A DNA stretch of 36,574 nucleotides. It comes from Escherichia coli (GTDB lineage: Bacteria; Pseudomonadota; Gammaproteobacteria; Enterobacterales; Enterobacteriaceae). Location of the stretch: assembly GCF_003334335.1 (NCBI RefSeq), contig NZ_QOWQ01000043.1, one strand, 5' to 3'. Below the pieces are notes generated by a model, which was not told the DNA's origin, made no database searches, and saw only the letters and a program-made list of their open reading frames with translations. A program made the translations under genes and the position numbers. Shown here piece after piece: positions 7,196-12,533 of the stretch (its first letter is position 1; the number at the start of each line of letters is the position of its first letter).

Positions 7196-9127
7196 TCACC
7201 GTGACGATGGCGCAGGGGCGTGACTGTTGAACGTGTTTTCATCCAGCACCGGCAAATCTTCCGAGCCAACCAGCGCTTTTGATTTCCCGTCGATCCGCTG
7301 TTGTTGCTCCTGACGGTAACGGGTGTATTTCTCTTTTGACAGTGAGCGATAAACATCATCGTCACGGATAATCGTCGGACGGATAAATACCATCAGGTTG
7401 CGTTTAGCGCGCTCGGTGGAGGTATAGCGGAAGAGTTGCCCCACTAAAGGAATATCGCCAAGCAGAGGAACCTTTGACACTTGCTCTTTAGAAAAATCAT
7501 CCAGCAATCCGCCCAGGACCACCGTTTCACCGGTTTTGACCAGCACGGCGTTTTGAATAGTACGGGTATTAAACGTCGGGCCGAGCGTCGAGTTAGAGGA
7601 AGAGTCAACGCTGGAGACTTCCTGCTCTATTTCGAGCAACACCGCGTCGCCTTCATTGACCTGCGGAGTAACTTTGAGTTTTGTCCCCACCGTTTTGCGT
7701 TCGACGGTATTAAAGACGTTATCCCCTGAAGTGGTCTGTGACCCGGATAGCACCGGCACATCCTGCCCCACGTTGAAGGACGCGAGTTTATTATCCAGCG
7801 TTACGATGCTTGGGGTGGCGAGGATGTCATTTTTATTGTTACTGGCCAGCGCGGTAAGCAGTACTCCCCAGTCGCCATTGAAGAAGCCTGCGGCCATGCC
7901 ATTGTAGGCGCTAAACATATCCCAGGCAGGATTCGCGCTGGTGATCCCACCATTCTTTTTATAATCAGCCACACCTTGCGCAGCGTTAAAAATCGGTAAT
8001 CCGGTATTGGTAAATTGCTGTGCGCCAACGTTTTTATTCGCCCATTGCACGCCGAGGTTTAGTCCATTTCCATCCTGAACTTCAACGATGATTGCCTCAA
8101 CCAGCACCTGTGCACGGCGAATGTCCAGACGCGCAATTACCGTGGCGAGTTTTTCCTGGACGGACTGGTCAGCGGTAATGGCGACGTTATCCATCGCGCC
8201 AGAAGAGGAGGGCTTACGCGCATTCCCTTTTTCATCTTTCAGCTTTTCGGAAACACCGGTTAGCACTTCCACCAGATTCGTGGCTTTAGCATATTTCAGG
8301 TAATAAACCCGGGTATTTCCTTCCTCGCTCTCTTCGACATCAAGGCTTTTCAGTAATGAAGTGATGCGCTGGCGTGCTTTTTCCGGTCCACTGATGATAA
8401 GAGAGTTGGTTCGCTTATCCGCCACAATCTTCGCGGAGAGGAGGGCTGGCATCTGGCTTTTACCGTGGCTTTCGCTGATTAATTGATTAAGAATCTCGGC
8501 GAGATCTTCCGCTGACGCATATTCCAGATGAATAATTTGCTGCTTCTCTGTGCCGATGACATCAACGCGCTTTATGACTTCAATCAGTTTATTAATGGTG
8601 GAGGCACGACCGGTCAGAATAAGAACGTTGGAGGGTTCATAATGCACAACATTACCGACGCTACCCGCATCCATCATCTGGCGGAGCAGGGGGGCCAGGT
8701 CACGAGCAGGAACGTTCTCAAGCGGTACAATTCGGGTGACCAACTCATCACCTACGCCTGGACGAGAACTGTCAGCAATCATCCCTGGCGATGTTTTTAC
8801 ATTAGCTGAGCGAACCACTTTCAGAAAACCATTGTCCAGCGTGATCACGGAATAACCGTAAAGATCAAGAATACTTAAAAAGAACTGGTAGTACTCCTGT
8901 TGGCTAAACGTATCATTACTGCGTACGGAAATGGTTCCCTGTACCGAAGGGTCGATCAGGATCGTTTTGCCAAGATGCTGCCCCACTATTTCCACGAACT
9001 GGCGGATATCGGCGTTATTGAAGTTCGCGCCGTATTGTTCGTTCTCAGCGTGTCCTGCACAAGGCATGAGTAGTGCTGCCAGCAAGCAGCAGGTGATTTT
9101 ATTGAGTCCTTTCATGACGCAGTCCAT
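7196..9127 (-). CDS. gspD: type II secretion outer-membrane secretin GspD
   Basis: 643 aa ORF with conserved secretin C-terminal region ([14 protein letters not shown]). Signal peptide probably begins at the internal [23 protein letters not shown], so the true start may be 12 nt downstream of the ORF-track start. Confidence 0.9.
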
Positions 9128-9914
9128 TCATTCCTGTAAGTTCCCCGACGGAAACATTTATCAAGCGGGGTACGCCGTTGCGACGAATTGTAAACTGAGC
9201 ACTTTGTTGAGTTAGCAGTAAACTTAATGCCTGTGAAACCTCATCAGGGTGGGTCAGCGAAAGATTATTGATCCTGAGGGCGATATCCCCTGGTTGTAGC
9301 AAGCTGGTGGTAAATGCATTGAGGCCCTTACGAGGGTTCAATCGAAGCCCGTATATCTGTTCTCCATCACGTATAGGCGTGGCGATAATATAATCAGCGA
9401 GTACATTTTGACTTTCTGAATCAGGCTGCTTGATGATGTCAGGTAGCCCTGGATGGAGAGTTACTTTTTCGTAATGCCCGTGAGTTTCAAACACAACGCT
9501 GGTTTTATTTATTTTTCTAATAAACGTTCCCGGCGCTGACTCAAGGGCTTCGTTGAGGGAGTATCGCTTTTGTTCGCTCCCCTCATTAATTAAGACAAAA
9601 GAAGTCTCATCATTCGATGTGAGTACAATGCCATTAAGCGCTATAGAGAGCTTAGGTGTTTCCTGATTAACTGCCACGGGATTTGCATCTTTTACCCCAG
9701 CATGATTTTCGTTACGCCATAAAGCGGCAAGGCTGAAATCAGACTGAAATGCGTTTGTTGGTTGATTAATGATCTGTCCATTTTTAACTATAGTTGTATG
9801 GAAATAATTCACATTAAAAATAATCGACCCTATGCTTATAAATATAATCAATATATTGATGGCAGCATCTTTATTATGATTCGCCAGATGGAAGGGGAAA
9901 CGTAGTGTGGGCAC
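9099..9914 (-). CDS. gspC: type II secretion protein GspC
   Basis: 271 aa, N-terminal TM segment, first gene of the minus-strand operon. 3' end overlaps the gspD ORF by up to 29 nt. Confidence 0.85.
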
Positions 9915-10093
9915 GATGTATGTTCTAATAAAATAGATTGGGTGGGTTGTATATTGACGTTAGTATAAATAGTATTAATGCCGCTTGCATGAATCAAGCA
10001 AAATTTATTTATATTAGTAATATGTATTTAATTAATAAATACATACATTATTTTTATGATTAAGGATAATCAATAATTAAAACAGGAAGTTCT
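9915..10093. promoter_or_regulatory. AT-rich divergent control region between gspC and gspA
   Basis: 179-bp intergenic region that is conspicuously AT-rich by eye (runs of TATA, AATA, TTTA). The divergent start codons flank it. Known in K-12 as an H-NS-silenced bidirectional promoter region. Confidence 0.6.
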
Positions 10094-11563
10094 ATGTCTA
10101 CGAGAAGAGAAGTTATTCTTTCCTGGTTGTGTGAGAAACGTCAAACCTGGCGTCTATGCTATTTGTTGGGTGAGGCTGGAAGTGGAAAAACCTGGCTGGC
10201 GCAGCAACTGCAAAAAGATAAACATCGCCGTGTGATTACTTTAAGCCTCGTTGTTTCCTGGCAAGGTAAGGCCGCATGGATCGTTACCGACGATAACGCG
10301 GCTGAACAGGGCTGCCGTGACAGCGCCTGGACGCGAGATGAGATGGCGGGGCAATTACTGCATGCGCTTCATCGAACTGATAGTCGCTGCCCTCTTATTA
10401 TTATTGAAAATGCTCACCTGAATCACCGCCGCATACTTGATGATCTCCAACGCGCAATATCTCTTATTCCTGACGGTCAATTTTTGCTGATCGGCAGACC
10501 CGATCGAAAAGTCGAACGTGATTTTAAAAAACAGGGCATTGAACTTGTCTCGATAGGACGTCTGACGGAGCACGAACTTAAGGCAAGCATCCTTGAAGGT
10601 CAGAATATTGACCAACCCGATCTCCTTTTAACCGCCAGAGTTCTGAAACGGATAGCTTTATTATGTCGGGGCGATCGCAGAAAGCTGGCGCTTGCCGGCG
10701 AAACAATTCGCTTATTACAGCAAGCCGAGCAGACCAGCGTTTTCACAGCAAAACAATGGCGAATGATTTACCGCATATTGGGTGATAACCGCCCCCGGAA
10801 AATGCAGCTTGCCGTGGTGATGAGTGGAACCATTATCGCTCTTACCTGTGGTTGGCTACTGCTGTCCTCTTTTACAGCTACGTTACCCGTTCCTGCGTGG
10901 CTGATACCCGTAACGCCATTAGTTAAACAAGATATGACTAAGGATATTGCTCATGTGGTGATGCGCGATAGTGAGGCGCTAAGCGTGTTATACGGCGTAT
11001 GGGGGGACGAGGTCCCAGCTGATTCGGCCTGGTGCGATCAGGCAGTAAGAGCGGGGCTGGCATGTAAAAGTGGGAATGCTTCTTTACAAACATTGGTAGA
11101 TCAGAATTTGCCCTGGATCGCATCGCTTAAAGTCGGGGACAAAAAATTGCCTGTTGTGGTCGTTCGCGTCGGTGAGGCTAGCGTTGATGTCCTCGTAGGT
11201 CAGCAAACGTGGACGCTGACACATAAATGGTTTGAGTCGGTATGGACGGGTGATTATCTTCTGTTGTGGAAAATGTCGCCGGAAGGGGAGAGTACCATTA
11301 CGCGTGATAGCAGCGAGGAAGAGATTCTCTGGCTGGAAACGATGTTAAACCGCGCATTGCATATTTCGACAGAACCTTCGGCGGAGTGGCGTCCCTTGTT
11401 GGTAGAAAAAATAAAGCAATTTCAAAAAAGCCACCACTTGAAAACTGACGGTGTTGTTGGCTTTTCAACGTTAGTACATCTCTGGCAGGTGGCAGGGGAG
11501 AGTGCCTACTTATATCGGGATGAAGCAAATATTTCCCCGGAAACAACAGTGAAGGGGAAATGA
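10094..11563 (+). CDS. gspA: type II secretion accessory ATPase GspA (ExeA-like)
   Basis: 489 aa. Walker A GEAGSGKT near the N-terminus. TM segment mid-protein and a periplasmic C-terminal domain. Confidence 0.9.
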   Translation: MSTRREVILSWLCEKRQTWRLCYLLGEAGSGKTWLAQQLQKDKHRRVITLSLVVSWQGKAAWIVTDDNAAEQGCRDSAWTRDEMAGQLLHALHRTDSRCPLIIIENAHLNHRRILDDLQRAISLIPDGQFLLIGRPDRKVERDFKKQGIELVSIGRLTEHELKASILEGQNIDQPDLLLTARVLKRIALLCRGDRRKLALAGETIRLLQQAEQTSVFTAKQWRMIYRILGDNRPRKMQLAVVMSGTIIALTCGWLLLSSFTATLPVPAWLIPVTPLVKQDMTKDIAHVVMRDSEALSVLYGVWGDEVPADSAWCDQAVRAGLACKSGNASLQTLVDQNLPWIASLKVGDKKLPVVVVRVGEASVDVLVGQQTWTLTHKWFESVWTGDYLLLWKMSPEGESTITRDSSEEEILWLETMLNRALHISTEPSAEWRPLLVEKIKQFQKSHHLKTDGVVGFSTLVHLWQVAGESAYLYRDEANISPETTVKGK

Positions 11564-11564
11564 C

Positions 11565-11984
11565 ATGTTTGAATTCTATATCGCCGCGCGTGAGCAGAAA
11601 GAAACAGGTCACCCTGGTATCTTCTCCCGACAAAAACACAGCACCATAATATATGTAATTTGTTTATTACTGATTTGCCTGTGGTTTGCAGGAATGGTGC
11701 TGGTTGGTGGGTATGCCAGGCAGCTATGGGTGCTTTGGATAGTAAAAGCCGAAGTCACTGTAGAGGCTGAAACGCCCGCTTTTAAACAATCAACACAACA
11801 CTATTTCTTCAAAAAACAGCCACTCCCCGTCGTCGAATCCGTCGAGGAGGAAGATGACCCAGGCGTCGCGGTTGAGAATGCCCCCTCTTCTTCTGAAGAC
11901 GAAGAAAATACTGTGGAAGAAAGCGAAGAGAAAGCCGGTTTAAGAGAGCGTGTCAAAAATGCACTGAACGAACTTGAGAGATAA
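11565..11984 (+). CDS. gspB: type II secretion accessory protein GspB (ExeB-like)
   Basis: 139 aa. One TM segment (IIYVICLLLICLWFAGMVLVGGY) and a strongly acidic C-terminal tail. Start is 1 nt after the gspA stop (TGAcATG). Confidence 0.85.
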   Translation: MFEFYIAAREQKETGHPGIFSRQKHSTIIYVICLLLICLWFAGMVLVGGYARQLWVLWIVKAEVTVEAETPAFKQSTQHYFFKKQPLPVVESVEEEDDPGVAVENAPSSSEDEENTVEESEEKAGLRERVKNALNELER

Positions 11985-12016
11985 CCCGAAGGCTGTTTAC
12001 TTTACTAGCAATACGC

Positions 12017-12044
12017 TTGCGTTCGGTGGTTAAGTATGTATAAT
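12017..12044 (+). promoter_or_regulatory. S10 operon promoter
   Basis: TTGCGT at 12017-12022 and TATAAT at 12039-12044 with a 16-bp spacer, placed by eye. Lies about 180 nt upstream of rpsJ, consistent with the long S10 leader. Confidence 0.5.

Positions 12045-12533
<489 letters not shown>

What the first reader, a model, noticed from the sequence alone, without database searches (positions are those of the whole stretch)
10094..11984. gspA-gspB accessory pair: AAA+ Walker-A protein plus small membrane protein with a polyacidic tail
GspA carries a Walker A box (GEAGSGKT) in its first 30 residues, a mid-protein TM segment and a large C-terminal domain. GspB is a single-pass membrane protein ending in an extremely acidic tail (ESVEEEDDPGVAVENAPSSSEDEENTVEESEEKA). 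The two are separated by one nucleotide (TGAcATG), suggesting coupled translation. The ExeA/ExeB paradigm implicates such pairs in peptidoglycan-linked secretin assembly. The function of the polyacidic tail is not obvious from sequence.
Basis: partly seen in the sequence, partly recalled or inferred. Interest (0 to 1): 0.35.

Follow-up and report, generated by a model that had tools for sequence, protein, structure and literature searches.

The report
E. coli gspA-gspB secretin-assembly accessory genes
This is the already annotated gspA-gspB pair of the silent E. coli K-12 type II secretion locus: GspA is a real ExeA-type peptidoglycan-binding membrane protein with a degenerate ATPase site, and "GspB" is a small acidic membrane protein that shows no detectable relation to the ExeB/OutB proteins it is named after.

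Summary
The region has gspA (10094-11563, 489 aa) and gspB (11565-11984, 139 aa), 99.9% identical to E. coli K-12 MG1655. They sit between the divergent gspC-O operon and rpsJ.

**GspA.** GspA is therefore an ExeA/EpsA-family protein.

**Corrections.**
- GspB has no T2SSB/HR domain. A profile-profile comparison with 20 canonical GspB proteins gives probability 1.4%. Zhang et al. 2022 (mBio) already noted this for K-12.
- GspB does not end in the acidic tract. Residues 89-125 form a disordered linker that varies in sequence but is always polyanionic. It lies between a conserved juxtamembrane motif and a strongly conserved C-terminal amphipathic helix.
- In E. coli GspA and its whole syntenic enterobacterial clade, the catalytic Walker B glutamate (canonical hhhhDEAQ) is replaced, mostly by Asn (LIIIENAH). 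The sensor-2 arginine is not conserved either. The module probably binds nucleotide without efficient hydrolysis.

**Verdict.** This is a known, annotated locus. GspB's mechanism is untested, so interest is modest.

The parts
9915..10093 (.). 179-bp AT-rich divergent control region between gspC and gspA
   Evidence: GC is 22.9% against 49.7% for the window. Weak sigma-70-like matches occur on both strands, no more than expected by chance. In the literature this intergenic fragment is H-NS-silenced and bound by SlyA (PMC5797941).
10094..11563 (+). gspA, 489 aa, ExeA/EpsA-family T2SS accessory protein
   Evidence: ORF found. It is 99.9% identical to MG1655 gspA. Pfam domains. It aligns end to end with a canonical GspA.
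10148..10504 (+). Cytoplasmic AAA_22 / AAA+ core (residues 19-137)
   Evidence: Pfam PF13401, E 4.7e-7. The AF2 model matches RFC/ORC-type AAA+ structures with E about 1e-6.
10169..10192 (+). Walker A GEAGSGKT (residues 26-33)
   Evidence: The Lys is kept in 20 of the first 21 alignment rows, which approximate the E. coli-like clade.
10394..10417 (+). Degenerate Walker B LIIIENAH (residues 101-108); Asn106 occupies the catalytic Glu position
   Evidence: It aligns to LVIIDEAQ of a canonical GspA. No row with the E. coli-like motif has Glu at this position, while all 16 rows with the canonical GEVGTGKT/DEAQ motifs do.
10802..10870 (+). GspA transmembrane segment (residues 237-259)
   Evidence: Kyte-Doolittle 19-residue maximum of 2.13. 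Helix 233-255 in the AF2 model.
10988..11269 (+). Periplasmic GspA_C39-like domain (residues 299-392)
   Evidence: Pfam PF21327, E 1e-13. Matches 4G54 by sequence and by fold. dN/dS 0.06.
11315..11479 (+). Periplasmic PG_binding_1 domain (residues 408-462)
   Evidence: Pfam PF01471, E 5e-9. F443, Q444, D452, G453, G456 and T459 are (near-)invariant across 42 homologues. dN/dS 0.04 for residues 393-489.
11552..11567 (+). gspA-gspB junction: Shine-Dalgarno-like AAGGGG, TGA stop, one base, ATG
   Evidence: Spacing of 16 nt or less, or a 4-nt overlap, in all ten orthologous loci.
11565..11984 (+). gspB (old synonym pioO), 139 aa, small bitopic acidic protein
   Evidence: ORF found. NCBIfam NF007250, 287 bits against a cut-off of 180. 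No Pfam match. The pioO synonym comes from PMC10652928.
11565..11642 (+). GspB cytoplasmic N-terminus (residues 1-26) with conserved MF.F..AA..Q..G
   Evidence: Alignment A2. Short helix 3-14 in AF2. The positive-inside rule supports an N-in topology.
11643..11711 (+). GspB transmembrane segment (residues 27-49)
   Evidence: Kyte-Doolittle maximum 2.86. AF2 helix 25-66 with pLDDT above 90.
11775..11828 (+). Conserved periplasmic motif PAFKQSTQHYFFKKQPLP (residues 71-88)
   Evidence: S76, Y80 and L87 are invariant; K83, P86 and P88 are nearly invariant over 11 orthologues. dN/dS 0.15 for residues 50-88. pLDDT for residues 72-81 is 86 in the GspA-linker-GspB model, against 58 for residues 71-80 when GspB is modelled alone.
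11829..11939 (+). Polyanionic disordered linker (residues 89-125)
   Evidence: 15 D/E and 1 K/R in 37 residues. In 11 orthologues it is 33-54 residues long, net charge -8 to -16, with almost no conserved positions. pLDDT below 50.
11940..11981 (+). Conserved C-terminal amphipathic helix LRERVKNALNELER (residues 126-139)
   Evidence: L126 and A133 are invariant and V130 nearly so. dN/dS 0.05, the lowest in the gene. Helix 119-138 with pLDDT 74-81. Hydrophobic moment 0.38-0.50.

Best explanation
This is the gspAB accessory operon of the cryptic, H-NS-silenced T2SS-alpha (Gsp) locus of E. coli K-12.

**GspA.** It is an inner-membrane ExeA/EpsA-family protein. It has a cytoplasmic AAA+ module, one TM helix, and a periplasmic C39-like domain plus a PG_binding_1 domain. 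By analogy with ExeA/EpsAB, it most likely binds peptidoglycan and marks or loosens a site where the pilotin-less GspD-alpha secretin can cross the wall and assemble in the outer membrane.

In E. coli and its syntenic enterobacterial clade the AAA+ module keeps Walker A but has lost the Walker B catalytic Glu and, in most members, the sensor-2 Arg. It probably works as a nucleotide-binding scaffold or switch rather than a hydrolysing motor.

**GspB.** It is co-translated with GspA, but it is not an ExeB/OutB homologue. It is an N-in single-pass protein. Its TM helix and juxtamembrane motif (FKQSTQHYFFKKQPLP) probably dock on GspA. A 33-54-residue polyanionic disordered linker then holds a conserved amphipathic C-terminal helix out in the periplasm. 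That helix could take over the partner-binding role (secretin, GspC or GspA) that the missing HR domain has in ExeB/OutB.

**Shown here:** gene identity, domains, topology signals, conservation pattern, loss of catalytic residues, and absence of the HR domain.

**Inferred:** peptidoglycan binding, the role in GspD assembly, loss of hydrolysis, GspA-GspB docking, and the function of the linker and helix.
For: **Identity and context.**
- 99.9% identical to MG1655 gspA-gspB, flanked by gspC/gspD and rpsJ.

**GspA domains.**
- Pfam AAA_22, GspA_C39-like and PG_binding_1.
- Sequence match to 4G54, E 5.6e-11; fold match, E 9e-11, TM-score 0.65.
- AAA+ fold matches to RFC/ORC structures.
- End-to-end alignment with a canonical GspA.

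**Degenerate active site.**
- Canonical homologues have GEVGTGKT plus hhhhDEAQ. The E. coli-like clade has [DE]-N-A-H, or DD/ED/DQ.
- The GIPR arginine is present in all 17 canonical-motif rows, but in only 9 of the first 21 alignment rows, which approximate the E. coli-like clade.
- The cytoplasmic domain evolves faster (dN/dS 0.25) than the periplasmic domains (0.04-0.06).

**GspB.**
- No Pfam hit. 0 of 53 family members carry PF16537, against 52 of 52 canonical GspB.
- hhalign probability 1.4%; no PDB hit.
- The same architecture is found in 11 orthologues, always directly downstream of gspA.
- The linker is always acidic but not conserved in sequence.
- dN/dS is lowest in the C-terminal helix.
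- N-in topology by the positive-inside rule: mean 3.8 K/R in the N-terminal flank against 1.3 in the C-terminal flank.
- AF2 gives TM helix, disorder, then C-terminal helix. The motif gains confidence when GspA is present.

**Literature.**
- The ExeAB/EpsAB roles in PG-dependent secretin assembly (PMC4098917, PMC6532946).
- K-12 GspD-alpha stays on the inner-membrane side of the wall unless PG cross-linking is reduced, and the authors name GspAB as candidate helpers (PMC10329019).
- K-12 GspB is noted as small and without an HR domain (PMC9239104).
Against: - No experiment on E. coli GspA or GspB turned up in the searches run here. Every functional step is by analogy.
- The protein that contacts the secretin in the paradigm (ExeB/OutB HR domain) is the part missing here, so the analogy is weakest exactly where the finding is most unusual.
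- The AF2 hint for GspA-GspB docking rests only on a pLDDT rise (58 to 86) in an artificial fusion with 10 paired sequences. No contact map could be inspected.
- Loss of hydrolysis is inferred from motifs alone. Some AAA+ proteins tolerate non-canonical Walker B residues.
- The locus is silent in K-12, absent from 42% of complete E. coli genomes, hit by IS1 in some strains, and deleted in a viable reduced-genome strain.
Confidence: 0.62

Rival explanations
1. GspB is a true but strongly reduced ExeB/OutB homologue that still recruits the secretin the canonical way, by binding the N0/N1 domains. The ExeA/ExeB paradigm would then apply unchanged.
For: - Same gene order, and the same bitopic N-in layout after gspA.
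- A loose resemblance exists between the N-termini (MFEFYIAAREQKE against MSYILDALKKSEQ) and between STQHYFF and the FSSHIYS first strand of the HR domain.
Against: - No PF16537 hit even at E <= 10.
- hhalign probability 1.4% with one aligned column.
- BLASTP finds nothing.
- The roughly 90 periplasmic residues are mostly disordered, leaving no room for an HR beta-sandwich.
- Net charge is opposite to that of ExeB (PMC4098917).
- The authors of the GspB phylogeny state that it has no HR domain (PMC9239104).
Confidence: 0.1
2. The acidic stretch is the functional element itself. It would be a periplasmic cation-binding (Ca2+/Mg2+) or peptidoglycan-associated polyelectrolyte, comparable to the peptidoglycan-cross-linkable C-terminal extension of OutB. 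It would anchor or space the GspAB complex relative to the wall.
For: - The acidic character is conserved in all 11 orthologues although the sequence is not.
- From my own recollection, not verifiable here: the old name PioO/PinO came from a report of a calcium-binding protein.
Against: - The linker is polyanionic (15 acidic, 1 basic), not polyampholytic like the OutB extension.
- GspA already carries a dedicated PG-binding domain, so a second anchor is not obviously needed.
- Selection is stronger on the flanking motif and helix than on the linker.
Confidence: 0.18
3. In E. coli, and especially in this strain, the pair is an evolutionary remnant with little or no present function: a silenced accessory operon that is slowly decaying.
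For: - Transcription of the locus is H-NS-silenced (PMC5797941).
- The locus is absent from 2257 of 5426 complete genomes.
- IS1 insertion or deletion occurs in some strains.
- A viable strain lacks the whole region.
- The ATPase motifs are degenerate.
- This window carries two private non-synonymous changes in gspA, including Y305D in the conserved WGY motif, and an 11-aa in-frame deletion in gspD.
Against: - dN/dS is 0.17 and 0.21, with very strong constraint on the periplasmic domains and the GspB helix.
- Synteny and architecture are kept across distant enterobacterial lineages.
- The gsp-alpha/chiA genes are enriched in mastitis strains and in the strains fittest in mouse mammary glands (PMC11390585).
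Confidence: 0.1

Closest known systems
ExeA (Aeromonas hydrophila) / EpsA and the EpsAB fusion (Vibrio; PDB 4G54)
   Same: - Domain order: AAA+ (AAA_22), TM, C39-like, PG_binding_1.
- Walker A motif and PG-binding signature residues.
- Operon with a downstream small bitopic partner.
- Linkage to a T2SS whose secretin has no dedicated pilotin.
   Different: - About 25 N-terminal residues shorter: Walker A sits at residue 26 instead of 50.
- Walker B is IIIEN instead of IIDE.
- The sensor-2 GIPR motif is not conserved in the clade.
- Only about 20% identical overall.
- The locus is silent in K-12.
ExeB / EpsB / OutB / PulB (Pfam T2SSB, PF16537)
   Same: Position directly after gspA, the N-in single-pass topology, and the gene name.
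   Different: - No HR domain and no MSYILDALKK N-terminus.
- No detectable sequence or profile similarity.
- Acidic rather than basic.
- The periplasmic part is a disordered polyanion plus one helix.
C-terminal polyampholyte extension of OutB (Dickeya dadantii)
   Same: A low-complexity, charged periplasmic segment in a T2SS accessory protein. Zhang et al. 2022 put the K-12 GspB stretch in the same descriptive class.
   Different: - The OutB extension follows an HR domain and occurs in systems without GspA.
- The E. coli segment is almost purely acidic and is followed by a conserved helix.
- Peptidoglycan cross-linking has been shown only for OutB.

Membership tests
GspA / ExeA family (T2SS accessory AAA+ peptidoglycan-binding protein) | N-terminal cytoplasmic AAA+ (AAA_22) domain with Walker A | tested here: met
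   Pfam PF13401 at residues 19-137, E 4.7e-7. GEAGSGKT at residues 26-33. AAA+ fold matches.
GspA / ExeA family (T2SS accessory AAA+ peptidoglycan-binding protein) | Canonical Walker B hhhhDE with catalytic Glu (an active ATPase) | tested here: not met
   LIIIENAH aligns with LVIIDEAQ. Glu is absent from every row with the E. coli-like motif and present in all 16 canonical-motif rows. Enzyme activity itself was not testable.
GspA / ExeA family (T2SS accessory AAA+ peptidoglycan-binding protein) | Single TM segment followed by a periplasmic C39-like domain | tested here: met
   TM at residues 237-259. PF21327, E 1e-13. Matches to 4G54.
GspA / ExeA family (T2SS accessory AAA+ peptidoglycan-binding protein) | C-terminal PG_binding_1 (PF01471) domain | tested here: met
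   PF01471 at residues 408-462, E 5e-9. Signature residues are near-invariant.
GspA / ExeA family (T2SS accessory AAA+ peptidoglycan-binding protein) | Encoded next to T2SS core genes | tested here: met
   Divergent from gspC-gspD-gspE in the window and in all related loci.
GspA / ExeA family (T2SS accessory AAA+ peptidoglycan-binding protein) | Binds peptidoglycan and is required for secretin multimer assembly | not testable with these tools
   Shown for ExeA/EpsAB in the literature (PMC4098917, PMC6532946). No E. coli data were found.
GspB / ExeB / OutB family (Pfam T2SSB PF16537) | Periplasmic HR (homology region) domain, PF16537 | tested here: not met
   No Pfam hit at E <= 10. 0 of 53 relatives carry PF16537, against 52 of 52 canonical GspB. 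hhalign probability 1.4%.
GspB / ExeB / OutB family (Pfam T2SSB PF16537) | Invariant N-terminal MSYILDALKK motif | tested here: not met
   The motif is invariant in 20 of 20 canonical proteins. E. coli has MFEFYIAARE.
GspB / ExeB / OutB family (Pfam T2SSB PF16537) | Bitopic N-in membrane protein encoded immediately downstream of gspA | tested here: met
   TM at residues 27-49, positive-inside bias, and a 1-nt gap after gspA.
GspB / ExeB / OutB family (Pfam T2SSB PF16537) | Direct binding to secretin N0/N1 domains | not testable with these tools
   Needs interaction assays or a multimer prediction with an inspectable interface.
Enterobacterial small GspB (NCBIfam NF007250, 'putative general secretion pathway protein GspB') | Full-length match above the curated cut-off | tested here: met
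   287.3 bits against a cut-off of 180, covering residues 1-139 of 139.
OutB-type peptidoglycan-associated polyampholyte extension | Mixed-charge low-complexity periplasmic segment that cross-links to peptidoglycan | tested here: inconclusive
   The segment is low-complexity and periplasmic but almost purely anionic (15 D/E, 1 K/R). Cross-linking is not testable here.

The most novel reading that the evidence does not exclude
In Escherichia and the enterobacterial lineages that keep gsp next to the S10 operon, the secretin-assembly accessory complex has been rebuilt. GspA has become a non-hydrolysing, nucleotide-binding peptidoglycan anchor. The HR-domain GspB has been replaced by an unrelated micro-protein. 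Its polyanionic disordered tether and terminal helix would give a new way of handing a pilotin-less secretin through the cell wall, for example by electrostatic spacing or cation-dependent extension across the periplasm.
Probability: 0.25. Interest if true: 0.45.

Novelty: already known. Interest (0 to 1): 0.25.

Why it matters
The locus is textbook E. coli K-12, and the oddity of its GspB has been noted in print, so nothing categorically new is claimed.

It still bears on an open, testable point: how the K-12-type secretin GspD-alpha gets through the peptidoglycan, given that it has no pilotin. Cryo-ET work shows it piles up on the inner-membrane side unless the wall is loosened, and names GspAB as the likely missing helpers.

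This analysis adds three things:
- The E. coli pair cannot work exactly like ExeAB. It has no HR domain, and its ATPase site has probably lost efficient hydrolysis.
- Three short, conserved GspB elements are identified for mutagenesis: the juxtamembrane motif, the acidic tether and the C-terminal helix.
- Annotation by gene name ('GspB') hides a protein with no detectable homology to the family it is named after.

Tried and rejected
- **Genome scan.** The scan of genome contigs with the GspA alignment returned only 5 loci. One was an E. coli contaminant in a Flavobacterium assembly. Taxonomic breadth had to be pieced together from the look-up of encoding contigs, and most of those loci are unnamed metagenome contigs.
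- **False divergent homologues.** Several apparently divergent GspB 'homologues' from the first protein search (P0007, P0010, P0013, P0029, P0051, P0052) are frameshifted copies from poor assemblies. They were dropped.
- **Vestigial homology.** I looked for vestigial homology between the small GspB and canonical GspB at the N-terminus (MFEFYIAAREQ against MSYILDALKK) and at STQHYFF against FSSHIYS. hhalign and BLASTP give no support, so it stays a visual resemblance only.
- **PDB.** A profile search with the small-GspB alignment found nothing meaningful.
- **Rfam.** No RNA family was found in 9800-12400.
- **Promoter/terminator scan.** No more sites than chance, and no terminator after gspB.
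- **Papers not held.** The primary papers on K-12 gsp (Francetic & Pugsley 1996; Francetic et al. 2000) and on GspAB in Vibrio/Aeromonas (Strozen 2011) are not in the library.
- **PinO/PioO.** The search for the old PinO/PioO calcium-binding work returned only noise, plus one gene list confirming the synonym.
- **PioO as a cytosolic replication factor.** This old annotation is rejected as a rival. The acidic part is predicted to be periplasmic, the gene is always paired with gspA, and the region is dispensable.
Full report
**1. Checking the observation**

The details are as follows.
- The Walker A box GEAGSGKT occupies GspA residues 26-33.
- GspA has a single strongly hydrophobic segment at 237-259. 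GspB has one at 27-49.
- The quoted acidic string is exact. It spans GspB residues 91-124, with 15 of 34 residues D or E.
- The junction reads AAGGGGAAATGACATG: a Shine-Dalgarno-like run, the TGA stop at 11561-11563, one base, then the ATG at 11565.

Two small corrections apply. The Walker A box straddles residue 30 rather than lying within the first 30 residues. The protein also does not end in the acidic stretch, because 15 further residues (GLRERVKNALNELER) follow.

**2. Identity and context**

The 1891 bases are 99.9% identical to E. coli K-12 MG1655, where they are annotated gspA and gspB. On one side lie the divergent gspC (9099-9914, -) and gspD. On the other lies rpsJ, the first gene of the S10 ribosomal-protein operon.

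The 179-bp gspC-gspA spacer has 22.9% G+C. In the literature it is an H-NS-silenced region bound by SlyA (PMC5797941).

The pair is found in 3169 of 5426 complete E. coli genomes. 'pioO' is an old synonym of gspB, and the whole chiA-gsp-pioO block is deleted in the viable reduced-genome strain DGF-298 (PMC10652928).

**3. GspA**

- AAA_22 at residues 19-137 (E 4.7e-7);
- GspA_C39-like at residues 299-392 (E 1e-13);
- PG_binding_1 at residues 408-462 (E 5e-9).

Other evidence agrees.
- Residues 291-466 match the solved periplasmic domain of the Vibrio vulnificus EpsAB fusion, 4G54, by sequence (E 5.6e-11).
- An AlphaFold2 model (mean pLDDT 83.5) matches 4G54 by fold (E 9e-11, TM-score 0.65). 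Its cytoplasmic part matches RFC/ORC-type AAA+ proteins (E about 1e-6).
- GspA aligns end to end with a canonical GspA from a marine gammaproteobacterium (20% identity, E 3e-9).

The 'would refute' condition of the finding is therefore not met. GspA is an ExeA/EpsA-family protein.

**4. A qualification: the ATPase site is degenerate**

In that pairwise alignment, E. coli LIIIENAH pairs with canonical LVIIDEAQ. I tabulated 83 full-length homologues from an exhaustive search of 1.84 billion representative proteins. I then checked the result on a 42-row alignment.

| Feature | Canonical proteins | E. coli-like clade (about 25 sequences, 28-46% identical) |
|---|---|---|
| Walker A | GEVGTGKT at residue ~50 | kept (Lys in 20 of the first 21 alignment rows) |
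| Walker B catalytic position | hhhhDEAQ (Glu in all 16 canonical-motif rows) | never Glu: mostly Asn, sometimes Asp, Gln or Ser |
| Sensor-2 arginine (GIPR motif) | present in all 17 canonical-motif rows | present in only 9 of the first 21 alignment rows |

A few members of the E. coli-like clade have lost Walker A altogether.

Consistent with this, the cytoplasmic domain evolves faster (dN/dS 0.25) than the C39-like (0.06) and PG-binding (0.04) domains, measured against a 76% identical orthologue. E. coli GspA also lacks about 25 N-terminal residues found in canonical proteins.

My inference is that the module binds nucleotide but is unlikely to hydrolyse it efficiently. This is a prediction from motifs, not a measurement. 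I found no mention of it in the papers I could search.

**5. GspB**

GspB has no Pfam match at all. It matches only its own NCBIfam model, NF007250.

Its family is tiny. There were 53 hits among 5.8 billion clusters, nearly all from Escherichia, and none carries PF16537. Several 'divergent' hits are merely frameshifted copies.

Real orthologues were recovered by walking from GspA homologues to their contigs, down to 21% identity. They include:
- an Escherichia-like lineage;
- Enterobacteriaceae bacterium UBA5654;
- Trabulsiella guamensis;
- several metagenome contigs.

In every case the locus reads gspC-divergent, gspA, a 132-161-aa ORF without a Pfam domain, then rpsJ where the contig extends that far. 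The gspA-gspB gap ranges from a 4-nt overlap to 16 nt.

By contrast, the gene after a canonical gspA is a T2SSB protein. 52 of 52 relatives of one such protein carry PF16537, and 20 of 20 begin with the invariant MSYILDALKK.

A profile-profile comparison of 11 small GspBs against 20 canonical GspBs gives probability 1.4% with a single aligned column. BLASTP and a PDB profile search are also empty.

The name 'GspB' is therefore positional. As far as these tools can see, the protein is not a member of the ExeB/OutB family. Zhang et al. [quoted passage not shown]

**6. Anatomy of the small GspB**

| Element | Residues | Evidence |
|---|---|---|
| Cytoplasmic N-terminus, conserved MF.F..AA..Q..G | 1-26 | short predicted helix |
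| TM helix | 27-49 | pLDDT above 90 |
| Periplasmic motif centred on S.Q.YFFKK.PLP | 71-88 | S76, Y80, L87 invariant; dN/dS 0.15 for residues 50-88 |
| Linker | 89-125 | unconserved sequence; 33-54 residues in orthologues, 24-41% D+E, at most 3 K/R, net -8 to -16; pLDDT below 50 |
| Amphipathic helix L-R-E-R-V-x-x-A-h-x-x-L | 126-139 | dN/dS 0.05, the lowest in the gene |

The K/R count in the 15 residues before the TM helix averages 3.8, against 1.3 after it, across the 11 orthologues. This supports an N-in, C-out topology, so the acidic linker and the helix are periplasmic.

In E. coli the linker is polyanionic (15 acidic residues, 1 basic) rather than polyampholytic.

**7. A hint of a GspA-GspB contact**

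I modelled GspB alone, and also a GspA-(G4S)6-GspB fusion. The fusion alignment had 10 paired orthologues plus 32 GspA-only rows.
- The conserved motif rose in pLDDT: 58 for residues 71-80 when GspB was modelled alone, against 86 for residues 72-81 in the fusion. It also acquired a short beta strand at residues 73-75.
- The linker stayed disordered.
- The C-terminal helix was unchanged at about 80.

This is compatible with the motif docking on GspA while the helix waits for another partner. It is weak evidence, because no coordinates or PAE could be inspected.

**8. Mechanism**

In the literature, ExeA binds peptidoglycan and multimerises. ExeB binds the secretin N0/N1 domains through its periplasmic domain. 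Without ExeAB the secretin stays at the inner membrane (PMC4098917, PMC6532946).

For K-12 specifically, cryo-ET shows GspD-alpha multimers trapped on the inner-membrane side of the wall. They reach the outer membrane when D-methionine loosens the peptidoglycan, and the authors suggest GspAB as the natural helpers (PMC10329019).

The best-supported reading is that GspA is the peptidoglycan-binding organiser of a secretin crossing site. GspB would be its co-translated adaptor: anchored by its TM helix and motif, with an acidic tether presenting a conserved helix to a partner. Which partner that is, and what the charge is for, remain open.

Rival readings are scored in the report sections:
- a reduced true ExeB homologue;
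- a cation- or peptidoglycan-binding polyelectrolyte, like the OutB extension;
- a decaying remnant.

**9. Novelty and score**

The locus, the gene names, the GspA domain set and the absence of an HR domain in K-12 GspB are all already known.

This analysis adds:
- the clade-wide loss of the Walker B glutamate and sensor-2 arginine;
- the delineation of three conserved GspB elements;
- the demonstration that the acidic stretch is a charge-conserved internal linker rather than a tail.

These are useful for designing experiments, but a specialist would not find them surprising. Interest is 0.25.

**10. Side observations**

The window is not identical to MG1655.
- Its gspD lacks 33 bp (11 aa, EQTNSLVITAD) between two CATTACCGC repeats. 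None of 14 sampled genomes shares this deletion.
- Its gspA has two private non-synonymous changes, V276L and Y305D. The second lies in the conserved WGY motif.
- IS1 has inserted into, or deleted part of, the locus in other strains.

Noticed in passing
window 8168-8180 (gspD, minus strand; gspD ORF 7196-9127): gspD has a 33-bp in-frame deletion relative to MG1655. It removes 11 aa (EQTNSLVITAD, after residue 316 of the 650-aa protein) and lies between two CATTACCGC direct repeats. All 14 sampled E. coli genomes, out of 1990 with a match, carry the longer allele. The lost segment contains a TNSL-type strand of a secretin N-domain, so the secretin of this strain may be defective.
   Followed up: partly
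window 10919 and 11006 (gspA codons 276 and 305): gspA has two private non-synonymous differences from MG1655, V276L and Y305D. There are no synonymous differences in 2.3 kb. Y305 belongs to the WGY motif conserved from E. coli to Vibrio (4G54), and every E. coli cluster representative has Y. This could be a strain-specific lesion or a sequencing error.
   Followed up: partly
E. coli genomes NZ_CP047594.1 (H1) and NZ_CP178707.1 (L020:2248-3231): IS1 is active at this locus in other strains. One strain has IS1A inserted in gspA. Another has an IS1-bounded deletion that removes the gspD 5' end, gspC, gspA and the first two thirds of gspB, leaving a 231-bp gspB remnant upstream of rpsJ.
   Followed up: partly
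L011 (NZ_JAUFQN010000012.1, 'Flavobacterium paronense CECT 8460'): A 12-kb contig in a Flavobacterium assembly carries K-12-like gspA-gspB with frameshifts. It is almost certainly E. coli contamination in a long-read assembly.
   Followed up: partly
window 11985-12221: No terminator-like structure follows gspB. The S10 operon promoter and leader begin within about 240 bp, so any gspAB transcript would read towards rpsJ. Rfam reports no family in this stretch at gathering thresholds.
   Followed up: no
window 10094-11984 against all complete E. coli genomes: The gspAB pair is present in only 3169 of 5426 complete genomes (58%). It is an accessory element of the species, not a core one. A published pan-genome study links gsp-alpha/chiA to mastitis strains and to fitness in mouse mammary glands (PMC11390585).
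   Followed up: partly
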